A stretch of DNA of 64,000 bases, taken from positions 21,785-85,784 of the forward strand of contig NZ_JALUXE010000004.1 in the NCBI RefSeq assembly GCF_027019125.1. The letters run 5' to 3'. Made by a program: the position numbers and the translations under genes. Source of the stretch: Roseovarius sp. Its GTDB lineage: Bacteria; Pseudomonadota; Alphaproteobacteria; Rhodobacterales; Rhodobacteraceae. Position 1 is the first letter of the stretch. Every line of letters starts with the position of its first letter. Under the pieces are notes generated by a model. That model had not been told where the DNA came from and made no database searches. It was given only the letters and a program-made list of their open reading frames with translations. Positions 36,390 through 62,101 of the stretch are shown piece after piece.

Positions 36390-36827
36390 ATGCTCACCCG
36401 TATTCTGCATTCCTTCTCCTCCCCGAAACCGGCCCCGCTGCCCGAGCCGGACGACAAATTGGCGCTGGCCGCCTTGATGGTGCGGGTGGCGAAATCCGAC
36501 CATCATTACGACCTTGCCGAGATCAAACGGATCGACCGCCTTTTGGCGCGGCTTTACGGGCTTGGCCCGGTCGAGGCGGCCAAGATGCGCGCCCTCTCGG
36601 AGCGGATCGAGCATGCCGCCCCTGAAACCGACCGCTTTGGCCATATCATCCGCGAGACCGTCAGCCTCGAGGCCCGCCTTGCCGCGCTCGAGGCTCTGTG
36701 GGAGGTGGTGTTGTCCGACGGCGCGAGCCAGCCAGAGGAATTGCACGTGATTGACGCCGCGCGCGAGGCAATGGGTCTGAGCCATGCCGATAGCGATGCC
36801 GCGCGCGCCTTGGCCGAGGCGCAGTAA
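36390..36827 (+). CDS. TerB family (DjlA N-terminal-like) protein
   Basis: LMVRVAKSD...E...LWEVVLSDG...E. Confidence 0.88.
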   Translation: MLTRILHSFSSPKPAPLPEPDDKLALAALMVRVAKSDHHYDLAEIKRIDRLLARLYGLGPVEAAKMRALSERIEHAAPETDRFGHIIRETVSLEARLAALEALWEVVLSDGASQPEELHVIDAAREAMGLSHADSDAARALAEAQ

Positions 36828-36869
36828 TTCCCCATTGGCGCGCCGCGCATGGCATCCTATACCAGAGCC

Positions 36870-37310
36870 ATGTTTGCAGATTTCCTGAAGCGGCTGATCC
36901 AACCAGCCCCCGAGCCTCTGACCGGCGGTGATGCCCGTCTGGCGCTCTGTGCCCTCCTCGTCCGCGTCGCGCGCACCGATGGAGATTACGCTGCGGCCGA
37001 GATCATCCGCATCACGCGCATCATCTCAGCCCGTTACAACCTGTCTCAACCCGAGGCAGAGGCCCTGCGCCAACAGGCCGAAAATCTCGAGAGCGAGGCA
37101 CCCGACACTGTCCGCTTTACCCGCGCGATCAAGGATGCAGTACCACATGAGGACCGTCTCGGCGTGATCGAGGCGCTCTGGCAAGTGGCCTTGGCCGATG
37201 GGGTGCGAGAGGCGGATGAGGACGCGCTGTTGCGTTTGGTGGCCAGCCTTTTGGGCATCACCGATCAGGAAAGTGCCCGCGCCCGTCAGCGCATCATGGG
37301 TCAAACATGA
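36870..37310 (+). CDS. TerB family protein (tandem paralog)
   Basis: LLVRVARTDG, DTVRFTRAIK, LWQVALADG. Confidence 0.9.
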   Translation: MFADFLKRLIQPAPEPLTGGDARLALCALLVRVARTDGDYAAAEIIRITRIISARYNLSQPEAEALRQQAENLESEAPDTVRFTRAIKDAVPHEDRLGVIEALWQVALADGVREADEDALLRLVASLLGITDQESARARQRIMGQT

Positions 37311-38062: not shown

Positions 38063-38184
38063 GCTAACGGCACGTCAATTCGCACAAACAGCCCCCCAAT
38101 CGCCCGCTTTGCAAGTTGCATCGGCCCATTTTTTCGGCCCTATTGTCACAAAGCCGTCAAAACTCACCGAAACGGAAGCTGCCC

Positions 38185-38961
38185 TTGTCCGACACGCCCC
38201 CGGTTATCGAGATCCGCAACCTGCACAAGGCCTATGGCGCGCTTGAGGTGATCAAGGGGGTCGATATTGCCGCCCACCGTGGCGAAGTCGTCTCACTCAT
38301 CGGTTCTTCGGGCTCGGGCAAATCGACCATCCTGCGGTGCGCCAATCTGCTTGAGGATAGCCAGCAGGGCGACATCCTGTTCAAGGGCGAACCGGTTCTT
38401 TGGAAAGGTGCGGGATTGGCCCGCCACCCCGCTGATCCCAAGCAGGTTCTGCGCATTCGCACGAATCTCAGCATGGTGTTCCAGCAATTCAATCTCTGGG
38501 CGCATCTTACGATCCTGCAAAACGTCATGGAGGCGCCCGTGACCGTGCTTGGCCGCAACCGGCACGAGGTCGAGGCTGCCGCACGCAAACATCTCGACAA
38601 GGTGGGCATTGGCGACAAATGCGATGTCTACCCCGCTCAATTGTCCGGCGGCCAGCAACAGCGCGCGGCCATCGCCCGCGCCCTCTGCATGGAGCCCGAG
38701 GCGCTCCTCTTCGACGAACCCACGTCGGCGCTCGACCCCGAATTGGAACAAGAGGTGATTCGCGTCATCAAGGATCTGGCCAACGAGGGCCGCACCATGA
38801 TGATCGTCACCCATGACATGAAAATGGCCGCCGATGTCAGCGACCATGTCGTGTTCCTGCATCAGGGACTGATCGAGGAGCAAGGCCCACCCGACGCGCT
38901 CTTTGGCGCACCGAAATCGGCGCGCCTGCAACAATTCCTCAGCTCCACCAGCGGCGACTGA
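38185..38961 (+). CDS. Polar amino-acid ABC transporter ATP-binding protein (HisP-like)
   Basis: GSSGSGKST, LSGGQQQR, FDEPTSALD. Confidence 0.95.
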   Translation: MSDTPPVIEIRNLHKAYGALEVIKGVDIAAHRGEVVSLIGSSGSGKSTILRCANLLEDSQQGDILFKGEPVLWKGAGLARHPADPKQVLRIRTNLSMVFQQFNLWAHLTILQNVMEAPVTVLGRNRHEVEAAARKHLDKVGIGDKCDVYPAQLSGGQQQRAAIARALCMEPEALLFDEPTSALDPELEQEVIRVIKDLANEGRTMMIVTHDMKMAADVSDHVVFLHQGLIEEQGPPDALFGAPKSARLQQFLSSTSGD

Positions 38962-38992: not shown

Positions 38993-39706
38993 ATGAAGAA
39001 ACTGCTACTCACCACCGCCGCACTGGCGCTCTCGGCTGGCTTTGCCATGGCCGATACCGTGCGACTTGGCACCGAAGGTGCCTACCCTCCGTATAACTTC
39101 ATCAACGACAAGGGCGAAGTCGACGGGTTCGAGCGCGAATTGGGCGATGAGCTATGCAAGCGCGCCGAACTGACCTGCGAATGGGTCACGAATGACTGGG
39201 ACAGCATCATCCCGAACCTCGTGTCCGGGAACTATGACGTGATCATCGCCGGCATGTCGATCACCGACGAACGGGATCAGGTGATTGATTTCACCCAGAA
39301 CTATACCCAGCCCGATCCCTCGGCCTATCTCGCCCCCTCCGCGGATGTCGATGTGAAATCCGGTGTGATCGCGGCTCAGTCCGGAACGATTCAGGCATCC
39401 TATGTGGCCAGCAGCGGTGCCACGCTGGTGGAATATGCGACCCCCGAGGAATCCATCGCAGCCGTGCGCAATGGCGAAGCCGATGCCGTTCTGGCCGACC
39501 GTGCCTTCCTTCTGCCCGTGGCCGAAGAGGATGCCGGGCTGGAACTCCTCGAAGAGCTGGTCATGATCGGGGGCGGCGTGGGTCTGGGCCTGCGCGAGAG
39601 CGACACCGAACTCAAGGCCAAGTTCGATGCCGCCATTCAGTCGATGAAGGACGATGGCAGCCTGAACGCCCTGATCGAGAAATGGGAAATCGGCCTGACC
39701 TTCTGA
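38993..39706 (+). CDS. Polar amino-acid ABC transporter substrate-binding protein
   Basis: Signal peptide; GTEGAYPPYN, WDSIIPNL, MSITDER. Confidence 0.95.
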   Translation: MKKLLLTTAALALSAGFAMADTVRLGTEGAYPPYNFINDKGEVDGFERELGDELCKRAELTCEWVTNDWDSIIPNLVSGNYDVIIAGMSITDERDQVIDFTQNYTQPDPSAYLAPSADVDVKSGVIAAQSGTIQASYVASSGATLVEYATPEESIAAVRNGEADAVLADRAFLLPVAEEDAGLELLEELVMIGGGVGLGLRESDTELKAKFDAAIQSMKDDGSLNALIEKWEIGLTF

Positions 39707-39764: not shown

Positions 39765-40646
39765 ATGTTTGCCTTTTGCTCCGATCCAGCCAGCCTTGAC
39801 GGTCTTGCGTGGATTTCCTGCTACCTGACCACGTCCAAACACCTGCAACTTTACTATGCGGTGGGCACGGTTCTGTTGCTGCTGGCGATCACTGCACCGG
39901 CTGCGCTTGCCTTTGGATTTGGTGGGGCAATGGCCGCGCGGGCGCATCTGGCCCCCCTGCGCTGGTTCGGCAAGTCCTATATCGCCGTCGTGCGCGGCGT
40001 GCCCGACATCGCGTTCTTTCTCTTTTTCGTCATCGCGCTGGATCAGGCGTTTGAATGGACGCGGCATCAGATCCTGTGCCCAGATTGGGACCAACCGATC
40101 CGTCAGGGCAATGACTTTGTGGTCTGTCAGGCCGCGAAACTCCCCCTCGGCACAGCCCCGCAATGGGTGCATGAAACCTACGGCTTTGCCCTTGCTGTGC
40201 TGACCTTTGCCATCGTCTTTGGGGCCTTTGCCGCGAATGTGCTCTTTGGGGCCATGCGCGCCGTGCCCCGTGCCCAGATGGAAACCGCCGAGGCCTATGG
40301 CATGTCCCGTCGTCAGGCCTTCTGGCGGATCATGGTGCCGCAGATGTGGGTTTACGCCCTGCCCGGTCTTGGCAATCTCTGGATGGTGCTGATCAAGGCC
40401 ACACCGCTGCTCTTCCTGCTCGGGGTCGAGGATATCGTCTATTGGGCGCGCGAACTCGGCGCCACGGCCAATCCGCGATTTACCGACTATCCGCATGGCG
40501 ACTGGCGGATGTGGTATTTTCTGGGGCTGATGGTGTTCTATCTCGGCTTCACCCGCGTGTCAGAGGTCATGCTGGAGCGCCTCATGCAGCGCCTTACATT
40601 CGGGCAGGCCACGACCGGCGGTGAAGCGCAAAGGAAAGCGGCATGA
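39765..40646 (+). CDS. Polar amino-acid ABC transporter permease (HisQ-like)
   Basis: RGVPD, AVPRAQMETAEAYG, KATPL. Confidence 0.93.
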   Translation: MFAFCSDPASLDGLAWISCYLTTSKHLQLYYAVGTVLLLLAITAPAALAFGFGGAMAARAHLAPLRWFGKSYIAVVRGVPDIAFFLFFVIALDQAFEWTRHQILCPDWDQPIRQGNDFVVCQAAKLPLGTAPQWVHETYGFALAVLTFAIVFGAFAANVLFGAMRAVPRAQMETAEAYGMSRRQAFWRIMVPQMWVYALPGLGNLWMVLIKATPLLFLLGVEDIVYWARELGATANPRFTDYPHGDWRMWYFLGLMVFYLGFTRVSEVMLERLMQRLTFGQATTGGEAQRKAA

Positions 40647-41630
40647 GCTGCATACCTTTGCGAACCACACTAAGCCATTTTGGATGCGCACCCTTCCAAC
40701 CATTCGGATATGTCTCTGATAAAATCATCCTCGTCTTGGGTGATGATGCCATCCGCTTGAACTACGCCTACGGCTGCCTTAAAAAGTCGCTCAATGCGCT
40801 TAATTGGCCAATTCGCTATTTCTGCAAGAGCCTCGTCCAATTCCGTTTGCGTTGGACGCGTTCGTCGCACCAAACGTCCGAGTTTCTCAAAGCCGTCCAG
40901 ACCGGGCAGAACATCCAGAACACCTTCATTCTTAAGGCATTCAGCTTCAGTTTCGGTAAATTGCATGATCCTATCAACCTCTTCAATGTGAAGCAGATCA
41001 TCCGCACGCGCAGCTGCCGAAAGCACGACAATCGCTGCTTTGAGTTCTCGCCGAAGCATTGTGTAAGGAGAACTAGAATAGCTGGATTTACCGACGCTAT
41101 CTTCTTTCAAACTTGTAAGTTCAACCTCGTAACCAGAATCCCCTGCGATCAGTTCACCAATGAGAAGCTGTGCGTCTTCAACGACGCCGTCATCATCAAT
41201 AACCCCTTCGATTCGATCCAACCTGAACGTTCTGTGAGCCCTTCGTTCATGGCAAATCGCACCGACATAGAATATTCCCCCGCGGTTCTCTACCCACCGC
41301 GTAGTTATTCGTCTTCGGCTGAAGTTATCTCCCGCGTCGCGGTAGTCGATGACAAGGAAAAGAGGCTCCAAGTTATAGCGGCGAGTTTGAGGAACAATTG
41401 GGTTATTTTCATGCTGGAGTTCGCGGCACTCGTGCTCAATGTCAATTCCGAGTTCGACGTCAACAAATCCACTTGGTGGAAGTTCAAAAACTACAGTAAC
41501 TGCTTCAGTTTCGCTCGGCGTCCGGCCTCTCAACCAAGAAAAAAATCTCATTCACTCGTTCCCCTTAATCAAAGTAAGCGCATGGAATTTAAGCTGCACA
41601 TCTGTCAACTGAGGTGTCAAGCATGAGCTG
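40641..41630. mobile_element. AT-richer single-gene cassette bounded by a 10-bp direct repeat, inserted between two permease genes
   Basis: GCATGAGCTG at 40641-40650 and 41621-41630; hand counts of three 60-nt lines give 43-55% GC vs 60% on one flanking line; no transposase or terminal inverted repeats. Confidence 0.85.
40670..41551 (-). CDS. WYL domain + TerB-like domain fusion protein, no HTH
   Basis: WYL: IDYRDAGDNFSRRRI...YVGAICHERRAHRTFRLDRI; TerB-like: LSAAARADD...EE...AAVGVVQADG...E; SD-like AAGGGGA upstream. Confidence 0.85.
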   Translation of the reverse strand: MRFFSWLRGRTPSETEAVTVVFELPPSGFVDVELGIDIEHECRELQHENNPIVPQTRRYNLEPLFLVIDYRDAGDNFSRRRITTRWVENRGGIFYVGAICHERRAHRTFRLDRIEGVIDDDGVVEDAQLLIGELIAGDSGYEVELTSLKEDSVGKSSYSSSPYTMLRRELKAAIVVLSAAARADDLLHIEEVDRIMQFTETEAECLKNEGVLDVLPGLDGFEKLGRLVRRTRPTQTELDEALAEIANWPIKRIERLFKAAVGVVQADGIITQDEDDFIRDISEWLEGCASKMA

Positions 41631-42429
41631 TCTGGAGACCATTCAGGCCTATGGGCTGCGCGCCATCGGCATCGGCGAGCGCCTCTTGCCGCAAAGCGAT
41701 TTCACCCTCTGCCAGCAGGTCACGCTGATCGGCTCCGGCCTGATCTGGAATATCTATTTCGGCTTGTTCGCCCTCGTCAGCGGCTTCATCCTCGCGACTG
41801 CCGTGGCACTTGGCAAAGGCTCACGCAACCGCGTGATCCGCAAACTGTCCGAGTGGTTCATCTTTGTCTTTCGCGGCTCGCCGCTCTTCATCCAGTTTTT
41901 CTTTGCCTATTTCTTCTTTCTTTCTCTCAAATCGGTCTCGCCCTTCTTTGATATCCTGACCTCGGCCTGGCTTGGCGCGTTGATCGTGCTTTTCCTCAAC
42001 ACGGCCGCCTATTCCGGCGAGATCTTCTATGGCGCGCTGCGGTCCATTCCCAAAGGCGATGTCGAGGCCGCAGATGCCTATGGGTTTTCCGGTTGGCCCC
42101 GCTTTCGCCGGATCATCTGGCCCACCATGCTGCGGCTCGCATGGCCTGCCTATACCAATGAGGCGATCTTTCTCTTTCATGCCACGACGCTGGTCTTTTT
42201 CTCGGGCTTTCCGGTCTGGCAACAGCGCGGCGATGCGCTCTACTATGCCAAGTATTTCGCCGACAAGACGTTTAACCCCTTCGTACCCTACCCGATCCTT
42301 GCGGGCTATTTCATCCTGCTCACGCTGGTGGTGATCGGCGTCTTTGGCCTGATCAATCGTCGGCTCAACCGTCACCTGCCGCAGGAATATCGCCGCAAGC
42401 TTAGCCTGCGGGTGAACCTGATCCGCTGA
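41623..42429 (+). CDS. Polar amino-acid ABC transporter permease (HisM-like)
   Basis: FRGSPLFIQ, NTAAYSGEI, EAADAYG. Confidence 0.93.
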   Translation: MSCLETIQAYGLRAIGIGERLLPQSDFTLCQQVTLIGSGLIWNIYFGLFALVSGFILATAVALGKGSRNRVIRKLSEWFIFVFRGSPLFIQFFFAYFFFLSLKSVSPFFDILTSAWLGALIVLFLNTAAYSGEIFYGALRSIPKGDVEAADAYGFSGWPRFRRIIWPTMLRLAWPAYTNEAIFLFHATTLVFFSGFPVWQQRGDALYYAKYFADKTFNPFVPYPILAGYFILLTLVVIGVFGLINRRLNRHLPQEYRRKLSLRVNLIR

Positions 42430-43016
42430 TGGGCGGGGTCGCGATCCTCGTTCCCGCCGCTGGCGCGTCGTCGCGGATGCGGGGCAAGGACAAACTATTG
42501 CAAACCGTGCGCGGTCAACCGCTCCTGCGCGACCGCGTGACGCTCGCCCTTGGCACGGGCTGCGCCGTGGCCGTGACCCTGCCACCAGAGGACGCCGCCC
42601 GCCGCGCGGCTCTGGACGGGCTCCATGTCACCCTTTTGCCCGTGCCCGACGCTGCCTCCGGCATGTCAGCTTCGCTGCGCACCGGCGCGGCCTGGGCGAT
42701 GACCCAAGATGCGGCCGCCCTTATGGTGCTGCTCCCGGATTTGCCAGACCTGACGGCAGAGGATTTGCAAACCCTCCTTCACACGAATGATCATTCCGGA
42801 ATCTTTCGCGCTTGCGATGCAGATGGCACCCCCGGCCATCCTGTCATCCTGCCTGCACGCCTTTTGCCGGACCTCACGCGCGTTACCGGCGACACCGGCG
42901 CGCGCGACCTCTTGCGCGCCCATCCCGTGACACCCGTTCCCCTACCCGGACGACATGCCACAACCGACCTTGACACGCCCGAGGCTTGGGCGGCATGGCG
43001 CGCCGCGAATCCCTAA
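42429..43016 (+). CDS. MobA/MocA-like nucleotidyltransferase family protein
   Basis: PAAGASSRM, GMSASL, LPDLP, GHPV, GDTGAR, DLDTPE. Confidence 0.9.
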   Translation: MGGVAILVPAAGASSRMRGKDKLLQTVRGQPLLRDRVTLALGTGCAVAVTLPPEDAARRAALDGLHVTLLPVPDAASGMSASLRTGAAWAMTQDAAALMVLLPDLPDLTAEDLQTLLHTNDHSGIFRACDADGTPGHPVILPARLLPDLTRVTGDTGARDLLRAHPVTPVPLPGRHATTDLDTPEAWAAWRAANP

Positions 43017-45652
43017 GCCGCATCGCGGCCCATATGCTCGGCGATGCGCCGGTTGAGCCAGGCAAGCCCCGCCAGCGACAGCCCCAAGCCAAGGAAAGAC
43101 GCCACCCGCACCAACCCCGACAACCCGGACATATCCACCAGGAACACCTTGGCCACGGTCAGCGCGACCCCGGCCATGGCCACCCGGCGCAAGGTCTCGG
43201 ATCGCCGCACCAGCGCCAAGCCCAACAGCACGACCGAGATCAGAATAAGCGCGACCGTATAGCTGTATAGCTCGCCATCGCTCACCCCCGGCACGCTCAG
43301 GTCATCCCCCTGCCAAAGCCGCCGAATTTCGAGCGCGAGATACCATGCCCCATACCCCGCCCCCGCCACAGCAAACGCCAGCCGAGGCAAACGCCGCAGG
43401 TGATCCAGTTTCCACGCCGCCAGTGCAAAGACCAGCGCCACCGGCAAATAGGCCGCCGCCAATGTATCGAGGATCAGAGGCCCGCTCACAAACTCCTTGC
43501 GCCAGAGCAGCGGCACCAGCGGATTGGTCAGCACCGCCTGCGCCACCAGCGTCACCAGCGCCACCGCCCCCATGATACAGCCAAGCGCCAGCCGCAGCCA
43601 CCGCACCACGCGCCCCCCCGCGCGTAACCGCCAGAGCTGCACCACGCTGGACGCAAGCCAGACCACCGCCGTCAGACCAAGCCCCGCATGTCCCATCGCC
43701 CCCGGTCCGCCCAGCCATCGCTGCAAGACGACGCTGAGAAAGATCGCCGCGATACTCCAGACGGCGCTTTCGATCACCACCCGCGTGGCACCCCCGGCGC
43801 GCGCCGCCATCGCCCCCCATGCTGCTGCCAGCAGGGCCAACGGCCCCAGATGCGACAGGAGCACATCGCTTGCGCTTGCCTCGCGCACGGCCCAAACCAG
43901 ACCGGGATCAATCACCAGCCGATAGCCGATCACTGCAACGCCCACCTGCGCCAGCCCCCCCAGCAGCGGCAGATTGAACCGTCGGTCAATCACCGCCGTG
44001 GCCAGAATCATCAGCCCGAGCGCCAGCGTCAGCGCCGCCTTGCTCAGCACCACAAAAAGCGCCAGCGTGATCAGCACCAAGGCCGCCGCCGCGAACAGCG
44101 CCGCACCGACTGCCCCCTCCGGCCCGCGCGAACGCACCGCAAACACCACCATCAGCGCCGCCAAGGCCATCACCTGCAAGGCCCACGCATAGGCCCCGAG
44201 CACCACGGCGGGGATCCAGAACAGCTCAAGGATCAGCGCAACCCCCGGAGCCATAACCGCCGCGCCAAGGCTCCAGAGGATCACCGGCACCGCGCCCGCC
44301 GCATATCTCGCTCGAAACGCACAAAGGATCGAGACCACCGCCCCGCCCGTCAGGATCACACTCACCTCTAGCGGCGTCTTGGATTCGGGCAATCGCTCGG
44401 CCCCGGCCATGAACGCCGACCAGACCGGCCCCTGTCCAAATCCTTCGAGTGCCACCAGCAGCAGCGTCGCCACGGCCGGAACCACCGGCACATCTTCCAG
44501 CGCCGAGGCCCGTCGCGTGCCGAGAATCAGCGCCGCCAGCATCCCCGCCAGCAGGCTCAGCGCGCCCCAAACCACCAGTGCCTCGCGCGCCTCCTGTGCC
44601 AGCCAGAGAGCGGCAAAGCTTGCCAGAGCCACCACCCCCCACACAAGACGGACCGGGAAGTCGGGATAGCTCCCCCCTGCCAGTACCCGGCGCAGCAGCG
44701 AATTGCCCGCGTGCTGAGGCACCACCCGCGCCTCGGGTACCAGCACGGTCAGCACCCCCAGAATAGCCCAGAACATGAGGTAAAGCAGCGCGCCCGCCTG
44801 CGCCAAATAGAGCAACGTTGCGCCACCTATACTGATTGCCAAGGCCAGAACCGAAATCCAGGCCCATCGCCGCGCGGCATCCACCGCCAGACCGACCGCT
44901 GCCAAGACGACGAAGTATCCGTAGAGGACGCCGGGCATGTCCGACTGTCCCCCCACCAGGAATGGCGCCGCCCCCGCGCCCACAAGACCAAGTGCCGTCA
45001 GAACCGGCCCATGGAACCAGCCAAGGATCACAGCCCCCGTACCAACCCCAACCAGACCAGCCAGAGCCACGCCCGGCCCGATCAGATCATAGAGCCCCCG
45101 CGCCGCCAGCACCCCCGAAAAGAGCGCGATCAGCCCCGCCCCGGACAAAACCGAAGGCAGCCCGGTGACCGCGCCGGCCGCCTCGTCGCCGTAGCGCCGC
45201 CGCAGCCGCTCGCCCGAAGCAATCAGCGCAGCCCCAAGTGTCAGCGCGCCCATCACGCGCCAGAATGGCGTGAGCAATCCTTGCTCGACGCCGTATTGCA
45301 CCATGAACACCCCGGCCAAGGCCAGCGACACGCCCGCCACCGCCAGCGCCCAATTGGCACGCGCCCAAGCCATCAGCGCCGCCATCCGGCCCGCGCCGAG
45401 CACAAAGGCACGCGGCGGCGTGACGTCCTGACTTGCCTCTGGCGTATCAACAGGGTCAACGGCCCAGGGACCAGCCCGTTCCTCGACCACGGGCGCAACC
45501 TCTGCCACCGCTTCGGGACGCGCCTGTGCCAGCCCCGCCTCAAGCCGCGCAACCCGCGCCTTGAGACGCAAATGCGAAATCAGGAGATAGGGCACTCCGA
45601 TCACGAGGAGCGCCAGTAATCCAAGCCCGAAAAGAACGGCGAGTGCATCCAT
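43013..45652 (-). CDS. DUF2339 polytopic membrane protein
   Basis: 879 aa, highly hydrophobic; ends KVFLVDMSGLSGLVRVASFLGLG. Confidence 0.9.
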   Translation of the reverse strand: MDALAVLFGLGLLALLVIGVPYLLISHLRLKARVARLEAGLAQARPEAVAEVAPVVEERAGPWAVDPVDTPEASQDVTPPRAFVLGAGRMAALMAWARANWALAVAGVSLALAGVFMVQYGVEQGLLTPFWRVMGALTLGAALIASGERLRRRYGDEAAGAVTGLPSVLSGAGLIALFSGVLAARGLYDLIGPGVALAGLVGVGTGAVILGWFHGPVLTALGLVGAGAAPFLVGGQSDMPGVLYGYFVVLAAVGLAVDAARRWAWISVLALAISIGGATLLYLAQAGALLYLMFWAILGVLTVLVPEARVVPQHAGNSLLRRVLAGGSYPDFPVRLVWGVVALASFAALWLAQEAREALVVWGALSLLAGMLAALILGTRRASALEDVPVVPAVATLLLVALEGFGQGPVWSAFMAGAERLPESKTPLEVSVILTGGAVVSILCAFRARYAAGAVPVILWSLGAAVMAPGVALILELFWIPAVVLGAYAWALQVMALAALMVVFAVRSRGPEGAVGAALFAAAALVLITLALFVVLSKAALTLALGLMILATAVIDRRFNLPLLGGLAQVGVAVIGYRLVIDPGLVWAVREASASDVLLSHLGPLALLAAAWGAMAARAGGATRVVIESAVWSIAAIFLSVVLQRWLGGPGAMGHAGLGLTAVVWLASSVVQLWRLRAGGRVVRWLRLALGCIMGAVALVTLVAQAVLTNPLVPLLWRKEFVSGPLILDTLAAAYLPVALVFALAAWKLDHLRRLPRLAFAVAGAGYGAWYLALEIRRLWQGDDLSVPGVSDGELYSYTVALILISVVLLGLALVRRSETLRRVAMAGVALTVAKVFLVDMSGLSGLVRVASFLGLGLSLAGLAWLNRRIAEHMGRDAA

Positions 45653-58980: not shown

Positions 58981-59325
58981 CAAATCTTTATTTTCATATT
59001 GTTTAACAACAAGTTACCATACTTTAAGAGATTGTCTTCCCACACTTTTTCCCACGCTTATATTTGAGTGGTAGGGGCTTTTCCGAGCATCGGACTTTTA
59101 AGCTTTGAACTGACATTGTGAGAATGTTGCCATCCACGCCGGTCCTCAAACAAAGCTGTCAGACTTTCACCCCGCCCCCCCTTTCAATAGCATTGCCTAC
59201 GGTGGAGCACAAAGAGCAGGACTTAACCTTCCGGCCATTCTCTCGAATTAAAATTCTTGGATTGCTCAAGTCGGTGCTCTGACGCACGTGGAAATAGCGG
59301 TCGAGGAGCCGCGCACTCCTATAAC

Positions 59326-60303
59326 TCAATCAGATTTGATATCTGCCGTTTTCGATTGATTGTAGCCGTAGGCTGAATCAAGATTTTCAGTAACGATCTC
59401 ATCGATGACTTTTATCTGCGCATCTTCAAAGTAGTCTCGATATCCACCGACTTTGGCACGCCGAACCTTGTAGCTATCTGGAATACTCTTATCGCCCGGG
59501 TTTAAACGCGCACCGCTAGTTCGAAAACTCTGCTCGGCCTCTTTCTTCTTCATGTTTTCGTACGAGGCGTAATCGACCGCCTCTGTTATCTGCGCTGCAC
59601 TGGCGGGAATTTCTAGGAACCGAGCGACCCGGGCTAACTCATTGACCGGGTCGGCCCGCATGTTCTCGTATTTGACAATTTCATGCGCGCGGGTGTTTAC
59701 CAATTCCTCTGCCCAGCTATTCATGAAGTTAATGATCCTGCGTAGCCCGCTTCTGTCATCTTGCACAAACTCGAACATCGAAAGATCGCTTCCGTGAGGT
59801 GGATAAAAGCTAAGCTGCTTCTTCCATGGTTGTGTGCGAAAGCGCCAATGAAAAAAACTTGAGACCACAACATCGCGAGGGTCCCGCACCATCAAAAGGA
59901 CCTTCTTGTCGTAGAAATCGAGCTTCGTCGATGTATTGCCAGAATAATCCCGGATAAACTCGTCATGTGTGAAAAGCAGACGTGGAATGCGACGGTCTAT
60001 GTAATGGAAATTGTCGAATCCGATCACAGCATCTTTTGGCAGATCATATACCTGTTGATAGAGCCGCGAGATCATTACTCTTAGCCAGGTGCGTCCGCTT
60101 TTTGCGTAAGAAACAATGACCGCATCAGCGCTTTGAAGCTGATCATACTGCTCGCGTCCTCTCAATTGCCGCTCGGCACCAAGACGTTGTTCATGATTTG
60201 CTCTCGTCAGGCTGAGATGCAATCTAACAATGCTGCGTCGCGCTCTTCTTCGGGCTTGATGAATGAGCTGGGGGAGCGCTGCACGCATGGTTCTTGTGCT
60301 CAT
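59326..60303 (-). CDS. PAPS-dependent sulfotransferase (Sulfotransfer_1-like)
   Basis: 5'-PSB SYAKSGRTWL, 3'-PB VRDPRDVVVS, KYENM, KVRRAKVGGY. Confidence 0.9.
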   Translation of the reverse strand: MSTRTMRAALPQLIHQARRRARRSIVRLHLSLTRANHEQRLGAERQLRGREQYDQLQSADAVIVSYAKSGRTWLRVMISRLYQQVYDLPKDAVIGFDNFHYIDRRIPRLLFTHDEFIRDYSGNTSTKLDFYDKKVLLMVRDPRDVVVSSFFHWRFRTQPWKKQLSFYPPHGSDLSMFEFVQDDRSGLRRIINFMNSWAEELVNTRAHEIVKYENMRADPVNELARVARFLEIPASAAQITEAVDYASYENMKKKEAEQSFRTSGARLNPGDKSIPDSYKVRRAKVGGYRDYFEDAQIKVIDEIVTENLDSAYGYNQSKTADIKSD

Positions 60304-60516
60304 TGAGAATTCATCCGATCATCGAATACGAAATGCGCGCTTTCTTGAGGCCCGGGTCGTATGGGGCGGCATTTCGTGCTAATCAACCCACCCTATGATT
60401 TCTCTGACTCCGGTCTGTATGTCCATGCTAATTTCACCGAACTTAGTGCTTTTCTTATTGCATACCGTTGGCTTATATCTAGCCGCTCAACTAACACCAC
60501 TACGATAGCGGAAACC

Positions 60517-61446
60517 ATGACTATAAAATTTAGAGATATTGACGAGACAACGTTAGCTCTTTCTCCTGATACAGTAATTTCGTCGTTCTCCCCGTTCGTC
60601 TGTAATGATCAAAAATCTGAAGGTCGTATCCGCCGGATCATCAAGATTTGGTTCAAGACTGCGAAGCGGGTCGTGAGGCGCCTTTTCGGTAGAAAAAGTT
60701 CATCTAGCACTCGCAGCAAGGACGTGATCAAGGACGAGTACGAGGTCACTTGGTCGCGTGGTTATGCGGCGTATGATCTAGATGTAGGGTGCCGCAAGCC
60801 CGAACCTTGGCTTGTGCGAGGTAAAGGTATAATGGCTGACCGATCTGGCGTGCCGAGATGGCGCAACTTGATCCTCAACGCGGCTATAAAATCAATCAAG
60901 CCGCGTCGCGTGCTTGAAGTTGGGTGCGGTAATGGAATAAACCTCATCCTCCTCGCAAATCAGTTCCCCGATATTTCCTTCACCGGGCTTGAGTTGACAG
61001 ACGCAGGAAATCGTGTTGCACGTGATTTACAGAACGTTGCTACGTTTCCTTCCGCTCTCGCTGCATATCCTTTTATCCCCGCGACTGATCCCGAGGCGTT
61101 CCGCAGAATCAACTTTGTGCGTGGTGATGCGACCGCCATGCCGTTTGATGATGGCGAATTCGATTTGGTATTTACGGTGCTATCAATCGAACAGATGGAG
61201 CGCGTACGCGATAAAGCGCTGGCCGAAATCGGGCGCGTCAGCGGTGGCCATGTTCTGAATATGGAGCCATTCGCAGAGGCCAATTCTTCGCTGCTGCGTC
61301 GCGCTCACGTATTTGGACGTGACTATTTTCGCGGGAAGATAGATGATCTGAGCCAATACGGATTAGAACCCATCTGGGCCACGATGGATTTTCCTCAGGA
61401 GGTTCAGCTAGGAGCAGCACTCGTGTTGAGCCACAAGAGCATTTGA
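60517..61446 (+). CDS. Class I SAM-dependent methyltransferase
   Basis: VLEVGCGNG, GLE, GDATAMPFDDGEFDLVFT; start uncertain (60361 or 60517). Confidence 0.88.
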   Translation: MTIKFRDIDETTLALSPDTVISSFSPFVCNDQKSEGRIRRIIKIWFKTAKRVVRRLFGRKSSSSTRSKDVIKDEYEVTWSRGYAAYDLDVGCRKPEPWLVRGKGIMADRSGVPRWRNLILNAAIKSIKPRRVLEVGCGNGINLILLANQFPDISFTGLELTDAGNRVARDLQNVATFPSALAAYPFIPATDPEAFRRINFVRGDATAMPFDDGEFDLVFTVLSIEQMERVRDKALAEIGRVSGGHVLNMEPFAEANSSLLRRAHVFGRDYFRGKIDDLSQYGLEPIWATMDFPQEVQLGAALVLSHKSI

Positions 61447-61657
61447 TCTTTAAAGGGAAGGATATTGCTGGTCCTAGATCGGCTTTGGGACCTTAACTAG
61501 GATATGTGTATGTTCCCTAATCCCGAGTTCCACCATTTCGAATCTTTTTGTGTATTTTCCGAGAATTATAAGAACATTTCTAAAGTCCGAAAGTTCCTTG
61601 CCCTCCGAGATTATTGGCTGGGTCAAGAGCAAGGTTTCCATCCAAAAGAGCCCCCTC

Positions 61658-61736
61658 TGACAAAACCGACATAACCGACAAAACCCATCCGACGCGGCTT
61701 GCCCGCGAGGTTCTGTCGGTTTTGTCAGTTCTGTCA
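61658..61736. repeat. Two inverted arrays of three 9-bp repeats (iteron-like origin)
   Basis: TGACAAAAC-CGACATAAC-CGACAAAAC, 25-bp spacer, GTTCTGTCG-GTTTTGTCA-GTTCTGTCA. Confidence 0.85.
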
Positions 61737-61816
61737 GCCGCCCAAAGCGCACTTCGTTTTCGTGGTGAGAGACCCGCACAATGTTGCGAATTCAATGAAA
61801 ACCGTACGAAATAAAG

Positions 61817-62101
61817 CTAATTCCCAATCAGCGCATCCAACTCTTTCTGCTCTTCAATGAACTCACGCACGGACTTGCGCATATCGTCCAATTCGCGCGA
61901 CCTGCCACCGTGCTTCCACTGGGGGTGTGATGGCCCGGCCTTGTGACCACCGCCAGCGCCATGAACGCGACACACGGCCCAGCCACGCACTGCTGGGCAC
62001 TTGCAGCGCTCTCCAGAGCGCTTGGCCTTGGCACGGCACCTGGGGGCGTCTCTGAGGCGCTGTACCGGGCTGATGGGGTTAGCGTTACTTTTTCTCGCCA
62101 T
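61817..62101 (-). CDS. HGGxSTG-like zinc-finger protein (small-terminase-related)
   Basis: PRCRAKAKRSGERCKCPAVRGWAVCRVHGAGGG...WKHG. Confidence 0.78.
   Translation of the reverse strand: MARKSNANPISPVQRLRDAPRCRAKAKRSGERCKCPAVRGWAVCRVHGAGGGHKAGPSHPQWKHGGRSRELDDMRKSVREFIEEQKELDALIGN

What the first reader, a model, noticed from the sequence alone, without database searches (positions are those of the whole stretch)
40670..41551. HTH-less WYL-TerB fusion as sole cargo: candidate stand-alone defence or stress sensor-effector
Seen: a clear WYL motif (Y-x-D...R-R-I...Y...C-x-x-R...R-T-F-R-L-D-R-I) fused to a TerB-like helical domain, with no DNA-binding HTH. Established: WYL domains sense nucleic acids and regulate defence systems and DNA-damage responses; TerB-like domains recur in stress and anti-phage loci. 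Inference: a one-gene system in which nucleic-acid binding by WYL switches on a TerB-like effector. I do not recognise it as a named defence system.
Basis: partly seen in the sequence, partly recalled or inferred. Interest (0 to 1): 0.72.

Follow-up and report, generated by a model that had tools for sequence, protein, structure and literature searches.

The report
WYL–TerB gene nested antisense in operon
A 1-kb foreign insert between two amino-acid-transporter permease genes carries one real gene, a sensor-type WYL–TerB protein, on the opposite strand, and selection keeps the insert's operon strand free of stop codons, apparently so that ribosomes can read straight through to the next permease gene.

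Summary
ORF 40670-41551(-) encodes a 293-aa protein with WYL and TerB domains, both above Pfam cut-offs, and no HTH. It is the only gene of a 970-bp, 49%-GC insert flanked by an exact 10-bp repeat (GCATGAGCTG). The repeat contains the ATGA stop/start overlap of two HisQ/HisM-like permease genes. All 30 congeners searched have the empty site.

The new result concerns the operon strand. There the whole insert is one stop-free frame (40643-41626, 327 codons). It starts on the ATGA at permease 1's stop and ends on the ATGA at permease 2's start. This needs zero TTA/CTA/TCA codons in the cargo. All nine perm-junction lineages scored have zero, against 83 expected in total, and so do relatives nested in prophage-like operons. 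Family members outside this clade carry 4-14, with one exception. The WYL–TerB frame is under purifying selection (dN/dS 0.11-0.34). The mirror frame is not (0.93-7.6).

Best reading: a gene of probable prophage origin nested antisense in an operon, tolerated because a "translation bridge" preserves coupling and avoids polarity. The defence or stress-sensor function is plausible but untested. No named defence system matches. The WYL+TerB architecture was already listed in 2014.

The parts
38116..38961 (+). ABC transporter ATPase (HisP-like), the first gene of the host operon examined here
   Evidence: NCBIfam HisP/GlnQ-type hits, E 4e-97
38993..39706 (+). Periplasmic substrate-binding protein (Lys/Arg/Orn/His type)
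   Evidence: NCBIfam TIGR01096, E 4e-50
39765..40646 (+). Permease 1 (HisQ/ArtQ-like), intact. Its stop TGA is at 40644-40646.
   Evidence: NCBIfam ArtQ/HisQ. Aligns at full length, 293 aa, at 82-96% identity to congeners.
40641..40650 (.). Left copy of the exact 10-bp direct repeat GCATGAGCTG. It contains the ATGA where permease 1's stop overlaps the start of the bridge ORF.
   Evidence: the repeat finder D12. The empty sites of congeners have one copy, GCGGCATGAGCTG.
40651..41620 (.). 970-bp insert, 45-53% GC in a genome of about 62% GC. Absent from 30 of 30 congeners and single-copy in this genome.
40670..41551 (-). WYL–TerB gene, 293 aa, the only conventional gene of the insert
   Evidence: Pfam; conserved in homologues; sense dN/dS 0.11-0.34
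41201..41356 (-). WYL domain (residues 66-117) with the invariant S78, R80, T83, R85, C100, H101, R103, R107, F109, R110, D112 and R113
40697..41038 (-). TerB-like six-helix domain (residues 172-285), with the conserved motifs AAARxDxxLHxEExDRI and vvxADGxIxxxE
40643..41626 (+). Mirror ('bridge') ORF of 327 codons, codon-in-phase complement of the WYL–TerB gene. It starts at the ATG of the ATGA overlapping permease 1's stop and ends at the TGA of the ATGA overlapping permease 2's start.
   Evidence: Zero TTA/CTA/TCA in the cargo against 13.3 expected; 0 of 20,000 third-base shuffles gave zero. The other two antisense frames have 11 and 19 stops.
41611..41614 (+). GAGG Shine-Dalgarno-like motif 8 nt upstream of permease 2's ATG, supplied by the end of the insert
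   Evidence: read from the sequence. The equivalent TGAGG motif is conserved in the leaders of the other lineages.
41621..41630 (.). Right copy of the 10-bp repeat GCATGAGCTG. It contains the ATGA where the bridge ORF's stop overlaps permease 2's start.
41623..42429 (+). Permease 2 (HisM-like), intact. The start is taken as the ATG at 41623, by homology with the empty sites.
   Evidence: NCBIfam HisM, E 2e-40

Best explanation
Shown: a 970-bp foreign module carrying one gene for an HTH-less WYL–TerB protein lies antisense exactly at the ATGA stop/start overlap of two permease genes of a polar-amino-acid ABC-transporter operon. A 10-bp duplication restores both the stop and the start. Shown: on the operon strand the whole module is one stop-free frame, joined by ATGA overlaps to permease 1 upstream and permease 2 downstream. 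Selection keeps this frame open, but does not conserve its amino-acid sequence, across a whole clade of WYL–TerB genes. Inferred: the open frame is a 'translation bridge'. Ribosomes finishing permease 1 re-initiate on it, translate across the insert and hand over to permease 2. The operon thereby escapes Rho-type polarity and keeps translational coupling, which makes an antisense passenger gene tolerable inside an operon. Inferred: the module comes from temperate-phage operons, where its sister clade is nested in the same way. At the permease junction it is an old presence/absence polymorphism, lost often. Inferred, weakest step: the protein is a non-enzymatic sensor. Its Arg-rich WYL barrel would bind a single-stranded nucleic acid or nucleotide signal (DNA damage or infection), and its TerB bundle would pass this on to a partner or the membrane. 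Convergent operon transcription would keep it down while the operon is on.
For: Domains and fold.

Insert, repeat and empty sites: (30 of 30 congeners empty; the window's flanks are native right up to the junction).

Same junction and same layout in at least 9 lineages with 39-60% identical cargo.

Bridge ORF at the permease junction: the in-phase antisense frame has 0 stops in all 10 perm-junction loci, while the other two frames have 6-19. Start and end (A/G)TGA overlaps are verified by script in 7 lineages and by hand in an eighth; a ninth (L072) is broken by a frameshift. The seven 3' spacers measured by script are 23, 26, 26, 23, 104, 104 and 125 nt, all equal to 2 mod 3.

Stop avoidance: TTA+CTA+TCA observed 0 against 3.8-13.3 expected per gene, summing to 82.7 over nine genes. 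Shuffles give zero in at most 1.6% of trials, mostly under 1e-4.

Controls: same-window low-GC genes give 7 against 9.8 and 11 against 10.6. Clade-B relatives carry 4-14.

Selection: sense dN/dS 0.11-0.34, mirror dN/dS 0.93-7.6. Mirror-protein identity is 21-40% against 40-67% for the sense protein. Cargo dS equals flank dS in the L016/L031 pair. The mirror products have no Pfam hit.

Same design in unrelated operons: G396 has ATGA at both ends plus an exact 10-bp repeat GCCGCATGAC. L111, L093, L096 and L113 also show overlaps.

Clade structure. Prophage-type neighbours.

Precedent for an ORF that must be translated only for coupling: comEB/comEC (10.1101/2020.12.30.424838, abstract).
Against: No expression data.

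One lineage (L072, a Logan contig) has a frameshift in a G-run of the 3' spacer, so its ATGA start is out of frame.

L110 shows an open mirror frame without clear coupling at either end, and L113 is coupled only at its end, so bridging may not be the whole reason.

A 327-aa junk polypeptide made with every operon transcript looks costly.

The insertion mechanism is unknown: no transposase, no terminal inverted repeats, no attC-like site.

Persistently low GC3 (0.45-0.62 against 0.73-0.89 in the flanks) is odd for an old resident.

Nothing ties the protein to defence directly: no PADLOC system, no phage or plasmid hit, no conserved partner.
Confidence: 0.55

Rival explanations
1. The mirror ORF is a genuine second protein-coding gene, a full-length antisense overlapping gene. 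Its product functions in the operon or the phage, and the locus encodes two proteins on the same DNA.
For: The frame is kept open over 316-453 codons in 15 lineages and has proper start and stop overlaps with neighbouring genes. Antisense overlapping genes with exclusion activity exist in the immunity region of phage Fc02 (PMC9936078).
Against: Mirror-frame dN/dS is 0.93-7.6, and mirror identity is only 21-40% between lineages. The cargo's synonymous rate is not depressed relative to its flanks. There are no Pfam hits. The composition is Cys, Arg, Phe and Asn-rich, as expected of antisense translation.
Confidence: 0.12
2. The insert is a currently active, transposase-free cassette that repeatedly and selectively integrates at ATGA stop/start overlaps with a 10-bp target duplication. 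The permease-junction copies in different lineages would then be independent insertions rather than one old event.
For: Exact 10-bp repeats containing ATGA occur at two unrelated sites, the window and G396. On the flank tree the occupied loci are scattered among empty ones, needing at least 5 changes, and the nearest relatives of both the window genome and Lutimaribacter saemankumensis are empty. The window's flanks are native up to the junction. Junction repeats differ in offset between lineages. GC3 is not ameliorated.
Against: No recombinase, inverted repeats or second copy were found. Leader and spacer layout is homologous in all junction lineages. The cargo tree roughly follows the flank relationships, and cargo dS equals flank dS in the one close pair. 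Loss by recombination between the flanking repeats is mechanistically easy. No empty site could be found for G396.
Confidence: 0.25
3. One reading: a stand-alone one-gene anti-phage or stress system in which ligand binding by WYL activates a TerB effector. The genomic nesting would be incidental.
For: WYL domains sense ssDNA or ssRNA in PafBC, DriD, CapW, BrxR and WYL1, which are the fold matches. The sister clade lies beside repressor-like genes in prophage-like regions, where exclusion genes often sit. The gene evolves fast but under constraint (dN/dS 0.11-0.34). There is no conserved partner, which is consistent with a single-gene system.
Against: No defence model matches beyond the generic WYL models. 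The window copy is not in a defence island. TerB has no demonstrated effector activity. There are no phage or plasmid hits. This view does not explain the mirror-frame selection.
Confidence: 0.25
4. The open mirror frame is a by-product of codon usage in GC-rich hosts (a 'shadow ORF') with no function.
For: Long in-phase antisense ORFs are common in this GC-rich window, for example opposite the ATPase and both permeases.
Against: The cargo has GC3 of 0.45-0.62 and uses A-ending codons freely, except for the three that would be mirror stops. Other low-GC genes of the same window and clade-B relatives in the same bacterial family do use them. Shuffles almost never give zero. Non-coding leaders and spacers are also open and keep their length modulo 3, with ATGA overlaps at both ends.
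Confidence: 0.03

Closest known systems
WYL-domain regulators PafBC, DriD, CapW and BrxR (HTH-WYL-WCX)
   Same: Same Sm-like WYL barrel with a conserved Arg-rich face. Best fold matches: 9fnd, 7tb5, 6sj9, 7qfz, 9cu3. Pfam WYL is above its cut-off.
   Different: No N-terminal winged HTH and no WCX domain, so it cannot be a DNA-binding transcription factor of that type. The output module is a TerB bundle.
TerB / DjlA-N family (PF05099; 2OU3, 2H5N)
   Same: Helical bundle with the repeated ADG...E acidic motifs. Pfam TerB is above its cut-off. Top fold hit is 2H5N and top profile hit is 2OU3.
   Different: Fused to WYL. Not part of a ter operon. Unrelated to the two TerB-family genes 4 kb upstream (BLAST E 0.016-0.21).
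WYL+TerB fusion listed by Makarova et al. 2014 (PMC4012209, citing Anantharaman 2012)
   Same: The same two-domain architecture. Public annotations call relatives 'TerB family tellurite resistance protein' or 'WYL domain-containing protein'.
   Different: That work lists the fusion only. No function, genomic nesting or mirror frame was described in the papers found.
Antisense overlapping exclusion genes olg1 / gene 10 of Pseudomonas phage Fc02 (PMC9936078)
   Same: A gene in a prophage regulatory region lies antisense to a gene of the opposite operon.
   Different: There both products are reported to be active. Here the mirror product is not conserved (dN/dS about 1 or higher) and only freedom from stops is selected.
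comEB-comEC translational coupling in Bacillus subtilis (10.1101/2020.12.30.424838)
   Same: An ORF whose translation, not its product, is needed for synthesis of the downstream protein (abstract).
   Different: comEB is a normal sense gene. Here the coupling ORF is the complement of another gene and travels with it.
Phage morons and transposase-free cassettes (MITEs, integron cassettes)
   Same: A single accessory gene of about 1 kb, with atypical GC, inserted between conserved genes and flanked by a short direct repeat.
   Different: No inverted repeats, attC site, transposase or second copy. No terminator-bounded independent unit: instead it is integrated into the host operon's reading frame.

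Membership tests
WYL domain (PF13280) | Profile match above the curated cut-off | tested here: met
   34.4 bits against 21.8, residues 66-117
WYL domain (PF13280) | Sm/SH3-like beta-barrel fold | tested here: met
   Five strands between residues 57 and 118 in the AF2 model. Foldseek prob 0.99-1.0 to the WYL domains of PafBC, CapW, BrxR and DriD, although E is only 3e-3 to 1e-2.
WYL domain (PF13280) | Binding of single-stranded nucleic acid or another anionic ligand | not testable with these tools
   Only conservation of the basic residues S78, R80, R85, R103, R107, R110 and R113 is shown.
YafY/PafBC-type WYL transcription regulators | N-terminal winged-helix DNA-binding domain | tested here: not met
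   No HTH in Pfam or NCBIfam. The N-terminus is a short helix plus a low-confidence region.
TerB (PF05099) | Profile match above the curated cut-off | tested here: met
   28.4 bits against 24.4, residues 172-285. PF05099 is also precomputed for several homologues.
TerB (PF05099) | TerB-like helical fold | tested here: inconclusive
   The domain model has pLDDT 92. Best hit is 2H5N (prob 1.0, TM 0.52-0.62, E 0.08). The profile hit to 2OU3 has E 0.018. This is consistent but not statistically strong.
Named anti-phage defence systems (PADLOC 2.0) | Match to a system-specific protein model, and the presence of that system's partner genes | tested here: not met
   Only generic WYL models matched (CRISPR-associated WYL, and the WYL part of a DRT model). 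No partner genes are in the insert.
Insertion sequence / MITE | Target-site duplication | tested here: met
   Exact 10-bp repeat in the window and a single copy at the empty sites. A second 10-bp case is in G396.
Insertion sequence / MITE | Terminal inverted repeats, a transposase, and multiple copies | tested here: not met
   No inverted repeat at the ends. The only ORF products are WYL–TerB and its mirror. One copy in the genome.
Antisense overlapping protein-coding gene (for the mirror ORF) | Open frame conserved across relatives | tested here: met
   0 stops in 17 of the clade-A loci examined; L094 has 1.
Antisense overlapping protein-coding gene (for the mirror ORF) | Purifying selection on the encoded protein | tested here: not met
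   Mirror dN/dS is 7.6, 1.11 and 0.93 in three pairs, against 0.34, 0.12 and 0.11 for the sense frame.
Translationally coupled operon gene (for the mirror ORF) | Start codon overlapping the upstream stop, and stop overlapping the downstream start | tested here: met
   (A/G)TGA at both ends in the window, L016, L020, L026, L030, L068, L069 and L074, and also in G396. ATGA at the start with a stop adjacent to or overlapping the next start (TGAtATG, ATGCTTGA) in L111 and L093. One end only in L096 and L113.
Translationally coupled operon gene (for the mirror ORF) | Actual translation, and dependence of the downstream gene on it | not testable with these tools

The most novel reading that the evidence does not exclude
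Clade-A WYL–TerB genes are a class of passenger genes built to be 'translationally transparent'. Their complementary strand is kept as a stop-free, frame-matched ORF that plugs by ATGA overlaps into a host or phage operon. The gene can therefore live, and perhaps move with a 10-bp duplication, inside tightly coupled operons without polar damage, while operon transcription in turn gates the passenger. This would be a previously undescribed way for accessory or selfish genes to colonise operons, and a case of selection on a reading frame for its translatability alone.
Probability: 0.45. Interest if true: 0.85.

Novelty: new variant of a known kind. Interest (0 to 1): 0.66.

Why it matters
If the bridge reading is right, three consequences follow.

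First, natural selection can maintain a 300-450-codon reading frame purely so that ribosomes can pass. That affects how 'shadow' ORFs and antisense overlapping ORFs are interpreted in annotation and in Ribo-seq.

Second, it gives a concrete, testable case of how an accessory gene can invade a translationally coupled operon without polarity. A single synonymous base change in the cargo should break it.

Third, it gives the uncharacterised WYL–TerB family a defined evolutionary setting in Rhodobacteraceae: temperate-phage regulatory regions, with one offshoot fixed in a transporter operon. The 50%-identity library holds 135 clusters at E<1e-30. This setting narrows its likely role to phage-host conflict or damage sensing, and suggests that its expression is gated by antisense operon transcription.

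If the bridge reading is wrong, the locus is still a clean example of a single-gene insertion polymorphism with exact empty sites.

Tried and rejected
- **Local origin of the TerB domain.** I compared the cargo with the two TerB-family genes 4 kb upstream. There is no meaningful similarity.
- **Mobile-element signatures.** I looked for terminal inverted repeats, attC-like or dif-like sites, tRNAs and other copies. I found none. Rfam gives only a chance sub-threshold miRNA hit. The consensus scan finds no convincing promoter or terminator.
- **Import by homologous recombination with donor flanks.** Rejected for the window. Its flanks share lineage-specific indels and substitutions with the nearest empty relative to within 15-30 nt of the junction.
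- **One old insertion or many.** I could not decide this. The flank tree needs at least 5 changes, but cargo and flanks co-diverge where that can be measured.
- **The ~90-bp spacers at the same junction in G450 and G452.** I could not show them to be remnants of the cargo.
- **Target duplications around other family members.** Only chance-level 9-10-mers turned up, except in G396.
- **An empty site for G396.** None was found in 400 genera.
- **Phage and plasmid databases.** No match. IMG/VR gave only distant partial relatives, which I did not analyse.
Full report
**1. Observation.** The ORF at 40670-41551 on the minus strand encodes 293 aa. Pfam finds WYL (residues 66-117, E 2.2e-8) and TerB (residues 172-285, E 2.2e-6), both above their gathering scores, and nothing else. 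PADLOC returns only generic WYL models, NCBIfam returns nothing, and PHROGs returns two families of unknown function. An AF2 model of the whole protein (pLDDT 74) matches the WYL domains of PafBC, CapW, BrxR and DriD. A model of the C-terminal 139 residues (pLDDT 92, six helices) is closest to 2H5N, and its profile weakly finds the COG3793 tellurite-resistance protein 2OU3. There is no HTH. The N-terminus carries only a short conserved helix, M..SWL..RTPSE.

**2. The insert.** The gene lies in a stretch of 45-53% GC within a genome of about 62% GC. It sits between two plus-strand permease genes of a HisP/ArgT/HisQ/HisM-type ABC transporter. An exact 10-bp repeat, GCATGAGCTG, stands at 40641-40650 and 41621-41630. 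It contains the ATGA in which permease 1's stop overlaps permease 2's start. All 30 genomes of the same genus that were searched have the two genes abutting, with a single copy of this sequence. The insert is single-copy in its own genome. Both permeases are intact. The window's flanks share a 3-nt indel and other lineage-specific bases with the nearest empty relative right up to the junction. No donor flank therefore came in with the insert.

**3. Relatives at the same junction.** The word-indexed search found only 11 clusters. Every relative of 39-60% identity for which DNA could be fetched lies at the same permease junction, antisense and with the same layout. That layout is a leader of about 70 nt next to permease 2 and a spacer of 23-125 nt next to permease 1. 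The carriers are Lutimaribacter saemankumensis and several metagenomic lineages. The nearest relatives of Lutimaribacter are again empty. On a tree of the permease flanks the occupied loci are scattered among empty ones, and at least 5 gains or losses are needed. On the other hand, the cargo tree roughly follows flank relatedness. In the one close pair the cargo's dS (0.059) equals that of the flanks (0.068, 0.069). I read this as an old presence/absence polymorphism with frequent precise loss. Repeated targeted insertion is not excluded.

**4. The mirror frame: what is seen.** On the operon strand the window has an ORF at 40643-41626 of 327 codons. It starts at the ATG of the first ATGA and ends at the TGA of the second. 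It is the codon-by-codon complement of the WYL–TerB gene, so it can only be open if that gene has no TTA, CTA or TCA codon.
- All ten perm-junction loci have zero stops in this frame, while the other two antisense frames have 6-19 stops.
- Each gene's own use of A at degenerate third positions predicts 3.8-13.3 such codons, summing to 82.7 over the nine perm-junction genes scored.
- Third-base shuffles give zero in at most 1.6% of trials, usually fewer than 1 in 10,000.
- Two other low-GC genes in this window carry 7 and 11 such codons, as expected.
- The non-coding leaders and spacers are open too.
- The seven spacer lengths measured by script (23, 26, 26, 23, 104, 104, 125) all equal 2 mod 3.
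- The (A/G)TGA overlaps at both ends are in frame in eight lineages (and L074 checked by hand). One Logan contig (L072) has a frameshift in a G-run.

**5. The mirror frame: what is selected.** The sense frame has dN/dS of 0.34, 0.12 and 0.11 in three pairs. The mirror frame has 7.6, 1.11 and 0.93. Mirror proteins are 21-40% identical where the sense proteins are 40-67% identical. They have no Pfam match. Freedom from stops is therefore selected, and the product is not. The native Shine-Dalgarno region and ATGA of permease 2 now serve the mirror ORF. A new GAGG inside the end of the insert serves permease 2. The simplest explanation is a translation bridge that keeps ribosomes on the operon mRNA across an otherwise untranslated 970 nt. 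This would preserve coupling and avoid Rho-type polarity. This step is inference. An ORF needed only for its translation has a precedent in comEB/comEC.

**6. The wider family.** The exhaustive profile search shows the architecture is not rare: 135 clusters at E<1e-30 cover the full length. Makarova et al. 2014 already list a WYL–TerB fusion. A tree of 21 members splits with strong support into two clades.
- Clade A comprises the permease-junction clade plus a prophage-region clade. Mirror stops are absent in 14 of its 15 members.
- Clade B has 4-14 mirror stops in five of its six members.

Clade-A genes outside the permease junction sit in prophage-like regions beside XRE/HTH_3 repressor-like genes, integrases and small phage genes. 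Several of them show the same plug-in design in unrelated operons.
- Maritimibacter sp. 55A14 (G396): a 75-aa gene, ATGA, a 332-codon mirror ORF, ATGA, a 117-aa gene, with an exact 10-bp repeat GCCGCATGAC at the two junctions.
- L111: 95 aa, ATGA, 397 codons, TGAtATG, 206 aa.
- Pukyongiella litopenaei (L093): 76 aa, ATGA, 386 codons, ATGCTTGA, 149 aa.
- L096 and L113 show one overlap each. L110 shows none clearly.

Antisense gene pairs in a phage immunity region are known from Fc02, but there both products are reported to be active.

**7. Function of the protein.** Nothing here tests it. Several points favour a role in phage-host conflict or damage sensing. The WYL fold has its basic face conserved. 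The sister clade has a prophage setting. The gene evolves quickly but under constraint. It has no conserved partner. Against a recognised defence role, several points weigh. No system model matches. The window copy is in a housekeeping operon. Only a few of 147 neighbours at other loci hit defence models (one LmuA, one methyltransferase, and a few others). There is no match in phage or plasmid records. I commit, at low confidence, to a non-enzymatic ligand sensor whose TerB bundle relays the signal to a partner or the membrane. Its expression would be held down by convergent operon transcription.

**8. Limits.** The insertion mechanism is unknown. No empty site was found for the G396 case. The number of insertion events at the permease junction is unresolved. 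My gene calls in the relatives' loci were crude.

**9. Verdict.** Its functional reading is plausible but unproven, and the domain architecture is not new. The finding gains interest from the selected, frame-matched, stop-free mirror ORF that stitches the insert into the operon. I did not find this described in the literature searched. A single synonymous mutation would test it.

Noticed in passing
window 36390-36827 (+) and 36849-37310 (+): Two small TerB-family genes lie 4 kb upstream of the insert. They are syntenic with the L. saemankumensis-like locus L016 (PF05099). They are unrelated to the cargo's TerB domain (BLAST E 0.21 and 0.016).
   Followed up: partly
window 59000-62000: A second low-GC stretch (48-52% GC) holds two ORFs, 59326-60303 (-) and 60361-61446 (+). 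I used them only as codon-usage controls and did not examine their identity.
   Followed up: no
L079 (G450) 2093-2182 and L081 (G452) 2086-2174: Two relatives of Lutimaribacter have unrelated GC-rich spacers of about 90 bp at exactly the same permease 1/permease 2 junction. In G452 the spacer contains a CCCGGGGG...CCCCC hairpin and is flanked by a repeated CTCATGC. This junction therefore accepts other small inserts too.
   Followed up: partly
L003 / L097 (G010, same genus) about 8027-8839 of L097: A clade-B relative (about 30% identity by tblastn) is a low-GC (46%) single gene just after parE. It has 6 mirror-frame stops and no clear target duplication. Nearby are elements of about 135 bp and about 50 bp that recur many times in several genomes of the genus.
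   Followed up: partly
L072 (Logan contig) 3' spacer: A run of seven G shifts the ATGA start out of the otherwise open mirror frame. This is either an assembly error or a recent frameshift.
   Followed up: no
L068, L072, L069, L074, L030: 3' spacers: In one sub-clade the spacer between the cargo stop and permease 1's stop is 104-125 nt where measured (L030, L068, L069). It contains a CCCGGG...CCCGGG-type hairpin, yet stays stop-free and in frame on the operon strand in all but L072 (see the L072 item).
   Followed up: partly
alignment A2 (147 neighbours of distant family members): One neighbour matches Lamassu LmuA (E 3e-64). Others match DrmD, MzaA, mad2/mad3 and type II methyltransferase models. 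I did not map these hits back to individual loci.
   Followed up: no
window 43013-45652 (-): An 879-aa protein with many predicted membrane spans has no NCBIfam match.
   Followed up: no
L103-L109 (IMG/VR): Seven viral contigs encode distant or partial relatives (28-47% identity over the WYL part or more). I did not analyse them.
   Followed up: no
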